DNA of 64,000 bases, taken from the NCBI RefSeq assembly GCF_050920415.1, contig NZ_CP169309.1. One strand, written 5' to 3'. Made by a program: the position numbers. Shown here piece by piece: positions 46,101-49,100 of this stretch (position 1 is the first letter of the stretch; every line of letters starts with the position of its first letter). Origin of the DNA: Escherichia coli. Lineage in GTDB: Bacteria > Pseudomonadota > Gammaproteobacteria > Enterobacterales > Enterobacteriaceae.

Positions 46101-49100
46101 GCCGGTCGCCAGCGGAAGCTCTTTTTGCATCGACGGTAAAAACAGCCACACCATCACGCCGCAAACAATAAACGCTACCGCTGCGCTCAGATACATTACC
46201 GTAAAGCTGAAACCCATCGCTAAGGCATAAGCCAGCGGCGGGCCAATGACCCATGCCAGTGAAACCTGAGCGCGTAAAAAAGAGCTGAACATCACCGCCT
46301 CACGTCCGGTTTTGTCGGCATGTTCACGTGCAAGGGCAAACATTTGCGGGTTAGCGGTCGAGCCAAAGCTGCTAAGAAAGACGCCAACGAATAGCAAAAC
46401 AAAGTAGTTGCGATTCCAGGCAAAAAGGGTGCAGGCCAGCACGCCTAACAGGCAGCAAAAGACAATCAGCGATTTGCGATCGCCGCGCTTATCAGAGCGC
46501 CCGGCGAGAAACTGACTGACCAGAATCCCAATGACAGCGCTGCCGGTAAAGAAGAATCCCACCATCGCCGGACGGGCATGTACTTCATCGGTAAGGAAAA
46601 TACTGAGTGTCGGGGTTTGCAGAGCGCCCGCAATACCGGTGAGAAAGGCAACGATTAAAAACGCCGTCGAGGTCAGGTCAAACGATTTCGCGCTGGAGAC
46701 TGCGGGGGAGTTATGCATGCTGGTCGATCACTGGAAGAGGAAGACGCGGAGTTTACGCTGCTTGTTAGAAAATAAACAGACAGCGAAATCAAAAGCGCCA
46801 CGAATAATCAAAATGCCATTTCACTGTTGCTGATTGGCTGCTGACGCTGCTGAAATGAAATTGCTGATAACGGATTTTCCCATCAGCAATTAGGAAAAAT
46901 GACAAAAAATTGTGCAGCACATCAAACTTTTGCTCATTACTTTACGGCTTTCCTTGCGTGCTGAAACAGAAGTATTATGCTTTCTTGAAACGTTTCAGCG
47001 CGATCTTGTCTTTAACCCTAAGCCAGGTTGGCGCTTTTTTTCTCATAGAAGCTGAATCGTTTCAATTCAGCAAGAGAGGAGAACTATGTTCCAGTTATCC
47101 GTACAGGACATCCATCCGGGCGAAAAGGCCGGAGACAAAGAAGAGGCGATTCGCCAGGTCGCTGCGGCGCTGGTGCAGGCCGGTAATGTAGCTGAAGGCT
47201 ACGTCAATGGCATGCTGGCGCGCGAACAGCAAACCTCTACGTTCCTCGGCAATGGTATTGCTATTCCACACGGCACTACCGACACCCGCGATCAGGTGCT
47301 GAAAACCGGCGTTCAGGTATTTCAGTTCCCGGAAGGCGTCACCTGGGGTGACGGCCAGGTAGCGTACGTGGCGATCGGTATTGCTGCCAGCTCGGATGAA
47401 CATCTGGGTCTGTTACGCCAGCTGACCCACGTACTGAGCGATGATTCCGTTGCTGAACAGCTGAAGTCAGCAACGACAGCAGAAGAACTTCGCGCATTGC
47501 TGATGGGCGAAAAGCAGAGTGAGCAGCTGAAGCTCGATAACGAAATGCTGACGCTGGATATTGTCGCCAGCGATCTGCTGACGCTTCAGGCGCTTAACGC
47601 TGCGCGTCTGAAAGAAGCAGGGGCAGTTGACGCCACCTTCGTCACTAAAGCCATCAATGAACAACCGCTGAACCTCGGACAGGGCATCTGGCTGAGCGAT
47701 AGCGCTGAAGGCAATTTGCGTAGCGCGATTGCGGTAAGCCGTGCGGCAAATGCTTTTGATGTGGACGGCGAAACGGCAGCCATGCTGGTGAGTGTGGCGA
47801 TGAATGACGATCAGCCCGTCGCGGTTCTTAAGCGTCTCGCTGATTTGTTGCTCGACAATAAAGCTGACCGTTTGCTGAAAGCGGATGCGGCAACGTTGCT
47901 GGCGCTGCTGACCAGCGATGATGCGCCGACCGACGACGTGTTAAGCGCGGAGTTTGTGGTGCGCAATGAACACGGCCTGCATGCTCGTCCAGGTACCATG
48001 CTGGTCAATACTATTAAACAATTTAACAGTGATATTACCGTGACAAACCTTGATGGCACCGGCAAACCGGCAAACGGACGTAGTCTGATGAAAGTTGTGG
48101 CACTTGGCGTTAAGAAAGGTCATCGCCTACGCTTTACCGCCCAGGGGGCAGATGCTGAGCAGGCGCTGAAAGCCATTGGCGACGCTATCGCTGCTGGTCT
48201 TGGGGAGGGCGCATAATGAGCAGACGTGTTGCTACTATCACCCTTAATCCGGCTTATGACCTTGTTGGTTTCTGCCCGGAAATTGAACGCGGCGAAGTGA
48301 ACCTGGTGAAAACCACCGGTCTGCATGCGGCGGGTAAAGGCATCAACGTGGCCAAAGTATTAAAAGACCTGGGGATTGATGTCACCGTTGGCGGCTTCCT
48401 CGGTAAAGACAATCAGGATGGTTTTCAGCAACTGTTCAGCGAGCTGGGCATTGCCAACCGTTTCCAGGTTGTACAGGGGCGCACCCGAATTAACGTTAAG
48501 CTGACGGAAAAAGACGGCGAAGTGACCGACTTCAACTTCTCGGGTTTTGAAGTTACCCCCGCCGACTGGGAACGCTTTGTGACTGATTCTCTGAGCTGGC
48601 TCGGTCAGTTCGATATGGTCTGTGTCAGCGGAAGCTTACCGTCAGGCGTCAGCCCGGAAGCGTTCACCGACTGGATGACTCGCCTGCGTAGTCAGTGTCC
48701 TTGCATTATCTTTGATAGTAGCCGTGAAGCGTTAGTGGCAGGTTTGAAAGCGGCACCGTGGCTGGTGAAACCTAACCGCCGCGAGCTGGAAATCTGGGCG
48801 GGCCGTAAACTGCCTGAAATGAAAGATGTGATTGAAGCTGCGCATGCGCTGCGTGAACAAGGTATCGCGCATGTCGTTATTTCACTGGGTGCCGAAGGCG
48901 CGCTTTGGGTTAATGCCTCCGGCGAATGGATCGCCAAACCACCGTCAGTCGATGTCGTAAGCACCGTTGGCGCAGGGGATTCTATGGTTGGTGGCCTGAT
49001 TTATGGCTTGCTGATGCGTGAATCCAGTGAACACACACTGCGTCTGGCGACAGCTGTTGCAGCCCTGGCGGTAAGTCAAAGCAATGTGGGTATTACCGAT

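What the first reader, a model, noticed from the sequence alone, without database searches (positions are those of the whole stretch)
46984..47071. Cra operators at the setB-fruB divergent promoter
Two to three TGAAAC/GTTTCA-type sites are present as expected for the fruBKA promoter. This is known biology, included as a positive control that promoter-level signals are readable in this window.
Basis: established knowledge. Interest (0 to 1): 0.15.

Follow-up and report, generated by a model that had tools for sequence, protein, structure and literature searches.

The report
Cra operators of the fruBKA operon
These are the two well-known binding sites where the E. coli repressor Cra switches off the fructose-uptake operon, so the finding is correct and ordinary; a conserved transcription terminator lies between the two sites and no paper I could search describes it.

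Summary
The observation and the interpretation both hold. Window 46500-47300 is the E. coli setB/fruB intergenic region. It is 100% identical to strains IAI39 and CE10.

- **The two sites.** Two exact TGAAWCGWTTCA palindromes lie at 46986-46997 and 47053-47064, against 0.02 expected by chance. They are the two best matches to the 16-bp Cra consensus in the 64 kb window.
- **Match to published operators.** The 'fruB proximal' 18-mer matches 18/18. The 'fruB distal' 18-mer matches 17/18. The one difference, at 47050, lies outside the 16-bp core.
- **Conservation.** Both sites sit at fixed positions in all 80 Enterobacteriaceae species examined.
- **The 'third site'.** It is only a half-site. GCTGAAAC (46960-46967) lies outside the stated span and is poorly conserved. 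TTCAGC (47066-47071) is an extension of the distal operator.
- **'Divergent promoter'.** The operators lie at and downstream of the predicted fruB start, not between two promoters. The element reported as shared with setB is a CRP site (46911-46926).

Not part of the finding: between the operators lies a covariation-supported hairpin followed by a U7 tract (46997-47041). Published Term-seq data place an abundant, Rho-independent 3' end at window 47042. I found no paper that discusses this fruB leader terminator.

Novelty: already known. Interest: low.

The parts
45537..46718 (-). setB coding sequence (sugar efflux transporter), divergent neighbour of fruB
   Evidence: ORF list. RefSeq annotation of identical DNA in IAI39 and of K-12.
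46911..46926 (.). CRP-like site TGTGCAGCACATCAAA. It is not part of the finding but belongs to the same control region.
   Evidence: The pattern TGTGC-N6-TC.AA is at least 95% conserved in 81 sequences. Shimada 2011 reports one CRP site shared by fruBKA and setB, with both promoters weaker in a crp mutant (PMC3105977). Assigning that site to these coordinates is my inference.
46954..46982 (+). Predicted fruB core promoter. The -35 is TTGCGT (46954-46959). The -10 is TATGCT (46976-46981), or alternatively TATTAT (46973-46978). The predicted start is about 46985-46989.
   Evidence: CTTGC and the T at 46982 are at least 95% conserved. In most genera, TTGCNN, a 17-bp spacer and an AAGACT-type -10 sit at this offset. 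No experimental start site could be retrieved, and the strict consensus scan found no promoter.
46960..46967 (+). Isolated Cra-like half-site GCTGAAAC, the possible 'third site'. It lies in the promoter spacer.
   Evidence: The left half is perfect and the right half does not match. Conservation is only about 40-70% across genera. It lies outside the finding's coordinates.
46984..46999 (.). Cra operator 'fruB proximal', CTTGAAACGTTTCAGC. It overlaps the predicted transcription start.
   Evidence: 14/16 to the consensus. 18/18 to the published 18-mer at 46982-46999. Present in 80/80 species at -100 to -105 from the ATG. Positions 46986-47000 are at least 95% conserved.
46997..47035 (+). Leader RNA hairpin (terminator stem). 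Its 5' arm overlaps the last bases of the proximal operator.
   Evidence: MFE -14.2 kcal/mol. The 8-bp basal stem is 91.9% paired in 76 distinct sequences, against 22-54% in slid controls. It shows 55 double-sided changes against 0-16 in slid controls, and 0 of 500 shuffles reach this. Median hairpin dG across species is -15.3 kcal/mol.
47035..47042 (+). U7 tract and the mapped RNA 3' end at 47042, the end of an intrinsic terminator in the fruB leader.
   Evidence: At least 6 of 8 T in 71 of 81 species. Term-seq gives a 3' end at K-12 2263539 (minus strand), 44 nt upstream of the fruB ATG, which is window 47042. It has 218,310 and 431,335 reads in two of the listed conditions, a Rho score of 0.26 ('No') and an intrinsic terminator score of 9.61 (PMC7815308 supplements 1 and 3).
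47051..47066 (.). Cra operator 'fruB distal', GCTGAATCGTTTCAAT, in the transcribed leader 20 nt before the fruB ATG.
   Evidence: 14/16 to the consensus. 17/18 to the published 18-mer at 47048-47065, with the difference at 47050 outside the core. Present in 80/80 species at -33 to -39.
47066..47071 (.). TTCAGC extension. With GCTGAAT (47051-47057) it makes a 21-bp extended palindrome or an RNA hairpin.
   Evidence: At least 90% conserved. Its distance to the ATG is fixed, while its distance to the operator core varies by 1 nt. Its role is unexplained.
47074..47082 (+). Shine-Dalgarno region GAGAGGAGA of fruB, predicted to pair with the 3' part of the U tract.
   Evidence: Single-sequence fold and RNAalifold both predict the pairing. 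One pair, 47043:47077, shows a compensatory UA-to-AU change in 5 distinct sequences, but 7 are unpaired and a slid register pairs nearly as well. The support is weak.
47086..50862 (+). fruB (47086-48216), fruK (48216-49154) and fruA (49171-50862): the regulated operon.
   Evidence: ORFs. RefSeq annotation of identical DNA.

Best explanation
The two palindromes are the proximal and distal operators of the fruBKA operon. Cra (FruR) is a LacI-family repressor encoded elsewhere on the chromosome.

Without fructose, a Cra dimer binds each operator. The proximal site covers the predicted transcription start and blocks RNA polymerase there. The distal site lies in the transcribed leader just before the ribosome-binding site, where it can act as a second block. 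When fructose is taken up, it arrives as fructose-1-phosphate. This binds Cra, lowers its DNA affinity and lets the operon be transcribed. A cAMP-CRP site about 70 bp upstream activates the promoter.

What is shown and what is inferred:
- Shown here: sequence identity to the published operators, statistical significance, position, and conservation.
- Taken from the literature: Cra binding, its affinity, and the fructose-1-phosphate response.
- Inferred: the exact transcription start and the division of labour between the two operators.
For: - **Locus identity.** 100% identical to E. coli IAI39 and CE10. The region is present in 5417 of 5426 complete genomes.
- **Exact motif.** Two copies against 0.02 expected. 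They are the top two consensus scores in the window.
- **Published operators.** 18/18 and 17/18. For the K-12 sequences, Kd is 1.8e-11 M at both operators (bioRxiv 10.1101/201277).
- **Position.** PMC7897506 states that in enteric bacteria FruR binds downstream of the fru transcription start and that fructose-1-phosphate is the inducer.
- **Conservation.** Both operators occur in 80/80 Enterobacteriaceae species at near-fixed distance from the ATG, and 78 of 81 sequences have 52-53 nt between them.
- **Regulator.** The cra gene is present in 5423 of 5426 E. coli genomes.
- **Promoter.** The conserved -35 and -10 candidates place the start at about 46985-46989, inside the proximal operator.
Against: - No binding or expression data exist for this exact strain sequence. 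The distal operator has a flanking SNP at 47050 relative to the K-12 oligonucleotide.
- I could not retrieve an experimental transcription start, and the strict sigma-70 consensus scan found no promoter. The operator positions relative to +1 are therefore predictions.
- The original footprint paper (Ramseier 1993) is not held. The operator sequences are taken second-hand from papers that cite it.
- Term-seq shows an abundant short leader RNA in LB and in glucose medium, without fructose. If that RNA starts at fruBp, the proximal operator does not fully prevent initiation.
Confidence: 0.95

Rival explanations
1. The distal operator works mainly together with the leader terminator. Cra bound at 47051-47066 holds or slows RNA polymerase at the hairpin and U7 tract 9 nt upstream. 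Transcripts that escape the proximal operator then end as a leader RNA of about 54 nt. Release of Cra by fructose-1-phosphate allows read-through of a sub-optimal terminator. This refines the main explanation rather than replacing it.
For: - The hairpin plus U tract is supported by covariation.
- An abundant, Rho-independent 3' end maps to 47042 in media without fructose.
- The distance from the U tract to the distal operator is 7 nt in 72 of 81 species, and the inter-operator spacer is 52-53 nt in 78 of 81.
- There is too little RNA upstream of the hairpin, about 9 nt, to form a classical antiterminator. This follows from the sequence and the predicted start.
Against: - The 3' end lies 7-8 nt after the stem, which is where plain intrinsic termination occurs without any roadblock. 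A polymerase stalled against a protein would probably stop further upstream; this rests on my recollection of roadblock studies and was not tested.
- There are no data comparing termination with and without Cra or fructose.
- The U tract is degraded in about 10 of 81 species while both operators remain.
Confidence: 0.2
2. The palindromes are bound mainly by another LacI-family regulator with a similar half-site, such as a sucrose ScrR-type repressor, or they act mainly as RNA hairpins in the leader rather than as Cra operators.
For: - LacI-family operators share a TGnAAnCGnTTnCA-like core (general knowledge).
- The distal palindrome is transcribed and folds into a 7-bp hairpin, GCUGAAU/AUUCAGC.
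- The TTCAGC extension is conserved although the 16-bp Cra consensus does not require it in that register.
Against: - The flanking GC plus TGAAWC signature matches the Cra consensus specifically.
- Picomolar Cra binding to these very sequences is published.
- The hairpin pairs never vary, so they give no evidence for RNA-level selection.
- At most part of the proximal site is transcribed.
Confidence: 0.03
3. The matches are chance palindromes with no function.
For: None beyond the fact that 12/16 matches occur by chance elsewhere in the window.
Against: - 0.02 exact matches are expected and two are observed, 67 bp apart.
- The sites are invariant in 80 species while the flanking sequence diverges.
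Confidence: 0.01

Closest known systems
E. coli K-12 fruBKA operators for Cra/FruR ('fruB proximal' and 'fruB distal'; Ramseier et al. 1993, as reproduced in PMC10760178 / PMC11157272)
   Same: Same locus, gene order, spacing and operator cores. The 401-bp intergenic alignment to MG1655 is 99% identical.
   Different: One flanking substitution next to the distal core (47050 A against G) and four other SNPs upstream. None lies in an operator core.
Vibrio cholerae fruR-fruB control region (PMC7897506, PMC8088597)
   Same: Cra/FruR sites with the TGAAWCGWTTCA core, a CRP site upstream of the promoter, a long leader, and reports of a small transcript from the leader.
   Different: - One study (PMC7897506) reports that in V. 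cholerae FruR activates from a site between the -35 and -10, and the regulator gene is adjacent and divergent.
- In E. coli, Cra represses from sites at or after +1, and cra is encoded far away.
Promoter-proximal intrinsic terminators (attenuators) in E. coli 5' UTRs detected by Term-seq (Adams et al. 2021, PMC7815308)
   Same: The fruB leader has a hairpin, a U7 tract and a mapped Rho-independent 3' end 44 nt before the start codon.
   Different: - No antiterminator, leader peptide or riboswitch-like conserved loop is evident. The loop is variable.
- The terminator is flanked on both sides by repressor operators at fixed spacing.
- The element carries no annotation in the supplement, and fruB is absent from that paper's main text.

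Membership tests
Cra (FruR) operator | Match to the 16-bp consensus GCTGAAWCGWTTCAGC (core TGAAWCGWTTCA) | tested here: met
   Both sites match the 12-bp core exactly. Each scores 14/16, the two best in the window. The consensus is quoted in PMC5888115.
Cra (FruR) operator | Identity with experimentally footprinted or bound operator sequences | tested here: met
   Proximal 18/18. Distal 17/18, with the SNP outside the core.
Cra (FruR) operator | Located in the control region of a known Cra-regulated operon (fruBKA), at or downstream of the start site as for repressed targets | tested here: inconclusive
   The gene context is met. The position relative to +1 rests on a predicted promoter and on a literature statement. 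No start-site data could be read.
Cra (FruR) operator | Conserved in orthologous regions of related species | tested here: met
   Present in 80/80 Enterobacteriaceae species, with invariant cores.
Cra (FruR) operator | Cognate regulator encoded in the genome | tested here: met
   cra is not in the window, but it is found in 5423 of 5426 complete E. coli genomes.
Cra (FruR) operator | Physical binding by Cra, relieved by fructose-1-phosphate | not testable with these tools
   Literature only: Kd 1.8e-11 M for both K-12 operators, and fructose-1-phosphate as the inducer.
Intrinsic (Rho-independent) terminator, for the leader element between the operators | G+C-rich hairpin immediately followed by a U tract | tested here: met
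   Hairpin 46997-47035 at -14.2 kcal/mol, followed by U7, with covariation support. The simple scan missed it because the stem is interrupted, so it has no contiguous stem with a 3-8 nt loop.
Intrinsic (Rho-independent) terminator, for the leader element between the operators | RNA 3' ends in vivo at the end of the U tract, insensitive to Rho inhibition | not testable with these tools
   Published Term-seq: a 3' end at window 47042, Rho score 0.26 ('No'), intrinsic terminator score 9.61.
CRP site | TGTGA-N6-TCACA with conserved arms, about 61.5 or 71.5 bp upstream of the start | tested here: inconclusive
   TGTGC-N6-TCAAA has conserved arms. The centre, 46918.5, lies about 67-71 bp from the predicted start. 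Literature reports one CRP site in this spacer, but I could not read its coordinates.

The most novel reading that the evidence does not exclude
The conserved cassette of operator, terminator and operator is a functional unit. Under this reading the fruB leader terminator is regulatory rather than a passive leak-stopper. Cra at the distal operator would set the ratio of termination to read-through, or the abundant leader RNA of about 54 nt would have a role of its own. In read-through mRNA the U tract would double as an anti-Shine-Dalgarno sequence. That would add an RNA-level layer to a textbook repressor-operator system.
Probability: 0.2. Interest if true: 0.5.

Novelty: already known. Interest (0 to 1): 0.15.

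Why it matters
As a positive control it works. Operator-level signals can be read from raw sequence in this window, at the right coordinates to the base.

The biology of the finding itself is textbook: the Cra/FruR and fruBKA system has been known since the early 1990s.

The modest added value is the comparative picture. The whole control region keeps almost invariant geometry across the Enterobacteriaceae. It comprises the CRP site, a weak promoter, the proximal operator, a leader terminator, the distal operator and the Shine-Dalgarno sequence. The leader terminator produces an abundant RNA in published Term-seq data, and no paper I could search discusses it. It may explain part of how tightly fruBKA is kept off.

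Tried and rejected
- **Promoter and terminator scan.** It found nothing. The promoter is weak and CRP-dependent in appearance, and the terminator stem is interrupted, so it fails the scan's stem and loop rule.
- **Rfam.** No RNA family in 44000-51500.
- **Original papers.** Saier and Ramseier 1996, Shimada 2011 (J Bacteriol) and Feldheim 1990 are not held.
- **Start-site data.** The Cappable-seq table is cut before 2.26 Mb. APERO has no supplement held. The Kim 2012 tables have no entry. The Kim 2018 ChIP-exo paper has no supplements held.
- **Third operator.** GCTGAAAC at 46960 has no matching right half and is poorly conserved, so I rejected it as a full operator.
- **DNA looping between the operators.** I considered this unlikely. 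The centre-to-centre distance is 67 bp (66-68 in other species), about 6.4 helical turns and so out of phase. This is inference only.
- **A promoter between the terminator and the ATG.** No plausible hexamers exist, and the 5 nt before the distal operator are variable.
- **Other Cra-like sites.** The 13/16 site at 32421 lies inside the yejG coding sequence. The 12/16 site at 46676 lies inside setB. I treated both as chance.
- **Literature on the leader terminator.** Searches for a described fruB leader, attenuator or sRNA found nothing. TERMITe supplements have no fruB entry.

Full report
**1. What is in the sequence**

Window 46984-47071 reads CTTGAAACGTTTCAGC, then 51 nt, then GCTGAATCGTTTCAATTCAGC. 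On the left is a 393-aa ORF on the minus strand (45537-46718). On the right are three plus-strand ORFs of 376, 312 and 563 aa (47086-50862). Megablast of 46500-47300 finds the region in 5417 of 5426 complete E. coli genomes. It is 100% identical in IAI39 and CE10, and the genes are annotated setB and fruB. The neighbouring genes are fruK and fruA. The locus assignment is secure.

**2. Is the observation more than chance?**

The 12-bp Cra core TGAAWCGWTTCA occurs exactly twice in the 64 kb window, at 46986 and 47053. Shuffles give 0.02 expected, and none of 100 shuffles had two. Scored against the 16-bp consensus GCTGAAWCGWTTCAGC, these are the two best 16-mers in the window, at 14/16 each. Five TGAAWC half-sites fall within 131 bp, where about 0.16 are expected (counts).

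**3. Comparison with the published operators**

Table 1 of Weeramange et al. (PMC10760178 / PMC11157272) lists 'fruB proximal' as TTCTTGAAACGTTTCAGC and 'fruB distal' as GAGGCTGAATCGTTTCAA, and attributes both to Ramseier et al. 1993.
- The proximal 18-mer equals window 46982-46999, 18/18.
- The distal 18-mer equals window 47048-47065, 17/18.
- Alignment with K-12 MG1655 shows that the single difference is a strain SNP at 47050 (A here, G in K-12). It lies one base outside the 16-bp core.

The same group measured a Kd of 1.8e-11 M for Cra at both operators (bioRxiv 10.1101/201277). PMC7897506 summarises that in enteric bacteria FruR binds downstream of the fru transcription start and that fructose-1-phosphate is the inducer. 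I could not read the original footprint paper.

**4. Comparative test**

I fetched fruB loci from 80 species of Enterobacteriaceae, including Escherichia, Citrobacter, Salmonella, Enterobacter, Klebsiella, Raoultella, Kosakonia, Leclercia, Lelliottia, Phytobacter, Yokenella, Franconibacter, Trabulsiella, Siccibacter, Atlantibacter and Kluyvera.
- All 80 have a proximal site at -100 to -105 and a distal site at -33 to -39 from the ATG.
- In a MAFFT alignment, 46986-47000 and the distal core are at least 95% identical while the flanking sequence diverges freely.
- The only variation in the distal core is at the two W positions, which the consensus allows (TGAATCGTTTCA against TGAAACGATTCA).
- The cra gene is not in the window, but it is present in 5423 of 5426 E. 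coli genomes.

**5. The 'third site' and the 'divergent promoter'**

GCTGAAAC at 46960-46967 has a perfect left half and no right half. It lies outside the stated span and is only about 40-70% conserved. I do not count it as an operator. TTCAGC at 47066-47071 extends the distal site into a 21-bp palindrome and is strongly conserved. However, it keeps a fixed distance to the ATG rather than to the operator core, so its role is unclear.

The alignment also reveals other conserved elements:
- A CRP-like site, TGTGC-N6-TCAAA, at 46911-46926.
- A -35-like TTGCGT at 46954-46959.
- A weak -10 ending at 46982. This is the AAGACT type in most genera. Escherichia has TATGCT or TATTAT.

These place the predicted start at about 46985-46989, inside the proximal operator. 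The two operators therefore lie at and after +1 of fruB, 266-353 bp from the setB start codon. According to Shimada et al. 2011, the element shared by the divergent genes is a single CRP site, and both promoters lose activity in a crp mutant (PMC3105977). I found no evidence that Cra controls setB.

**6. Mechanism**

Best supported: Cra dimers occupy both operators in the absence of fructose-1-phosphate. The proximal one occludes the start site. The distal one sits in the leader 20 nt before the ATG. Fructose-1-phosphate, made during PTS uptake of fructose, releases Cra. cAMP-CRP activates the weak promoter.

The evidence stands at three levels:
- Shown here: identity, significance, position and conservation.
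- From the literature: binding and induction.
- Inferred: the start site and the separate roles of the two operators.

**7. Something not in the finding: a terminator between the operators**

The 51 nt between the operators are not neutral spacer.
- **Structure.** A hairpin (46997-47035, -14.2 kcal/mol) is followed by U7 (47035-47041). Its 5' arm begins in the last bases of the proximal operator.
- **Covariation.** Across 81 sequences the 8-bp basal stem is 91.9% paired, against 22-54% when the partner is slid. It shows 55 double-sided changes against 0-16 in slid controls, and 0 of 500 shuffles reach this. Pair 24:55, for example, is CG in 32 sequences, UA in 27 and UG in 22.
- **Geometry.** The loop is variable. 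The median hairpin dG is -15.3 kcal/mol. 71 of 81 sequences keep at least 6 of 8 U. The distance from the U tract to the distal operator is 7 nt in 72 of 81. The inter-operator spacer is 52-53 nt in 78 of 81.
- **In vivo 3' end.** Published Term-seq data (Adams et al. 2021, PMC7815308, supplements 1 and 3) list a 3' end at K-12 2263539 on the minus strand, 44 nt upstream of the fruB ATG. That is window 47042, the C after the seven U's. It is listed three times in supplement 1, which covers three growth conditions. Two of those entries were read, with 218,310 reads (LB, OD 0.4) and 431,335 reads. The Rho score is 0.26 ('No') and the intrinsic terminator score is 9.61, where 3 or more indicates intrinsic termination. 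No regulatory element is noted.
- **Literature.** fruB is not mentioned in that paper's main text. Three further searches found no description of a fruB leader terminator. The searchable library lacks most subscription papers, so this is not proof of novelty.

Only about 9 nt of RNA precede the hairpin, so a classical antiterminator is not possible. The remaining options are a constitutive partial terminator, coupling to Cra at the distal operator (rival 1), or a function for the short RNA itself.

In the full-length leader the U tract is predicted to pair with the Shine-Dalgarno region. One pair, 47043:47077, shows UA-to-AU compensation in five distinct sequences. Seven sequences break it, and a slid register pairs almost as well. 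I rate this as a lead only.

**8. Verdict**

The biology is already known, so interest is low. The leader terminator is the one feature worth a follow-up experiment.

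Noticed in passing
window 46997-47042: A conserved, covariation-supported hairpin plus U7 intrinsic terminator lies in the fruB leader between the two Cra operators. 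Published Term-seq (PMC7815308) maps an abundant Rho-independent 3' end exactly at 47042. I found no paper that discusses it.
   Followed up: yes
window 47040-47044 with 47076-47080: The 3' part of the terminator U tract (UUCUC) is predicted to pair with the fruB Shine-Dalgarno region (GAGGA). One compensatory pair, 47043:47077, supports it, but the support is weak because purine and pyrimidine runs pair in several registers.
   Followed up: partly
window 47066-47071: TTCAGC just after the distal operator is nearly invariant in 81 species. It keeps a fixed distance to the ATG rather than to the operator core. With GCTGAAT (47051-47057) it can form a 7-bp RNA hairpin. The reason for its conservation is unknown.
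   Followed up: partly
window 46829-46887 (also L003-L082 upstream regions): GCTGA(A/C) motifs, which look like Cra half-sites, are enriched in the setB-fruB spacer. GCTGAA occurs 5 times against 0.56 expected in the window. The median is 6 per 370 bp in 80 species against 1.29 in the background. The conserved copies are GCTGAA at 46849-46854 and the inverted TCAGC at 46883-46887, upstream of the CRP site. It is unknown whether Cra or another protein uses them.
   Followed up: partly
window 46911-46926: A conserved CRP-like site, TGTGCAGCACATCAAA, is probably the single CRP site reported to activate both fruBKA and setB (PMC3105977). Its centre lies about 67-71 bp from the predicted fruB start.
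   Followed up: partly
window 46744-46824: Several strongly conserved blocks lie near setB: GCGGAGTTTACGC, AAAATAAACAG and AATCAAAATGCCATTTCA. They are presumably the setB promoter and 5' UTR. I did not analyse them.
   Followed up: no
window 47050: A strain SNP (A here and in IAI39/CE10, G in K-12) lies one base before the distal operator core, within the 18-mer used in published binding assays. Its effect on Cra affinity is unknown.
   Followed up: partly
window 32421-32436: GTTGAACCGATTCCGC matches the Cra consensus 13/16, the third-best score in the window. By collinearity with IAI39 it lies inside the yejG coding sequence. It is probably chance.
   Followed up: partly
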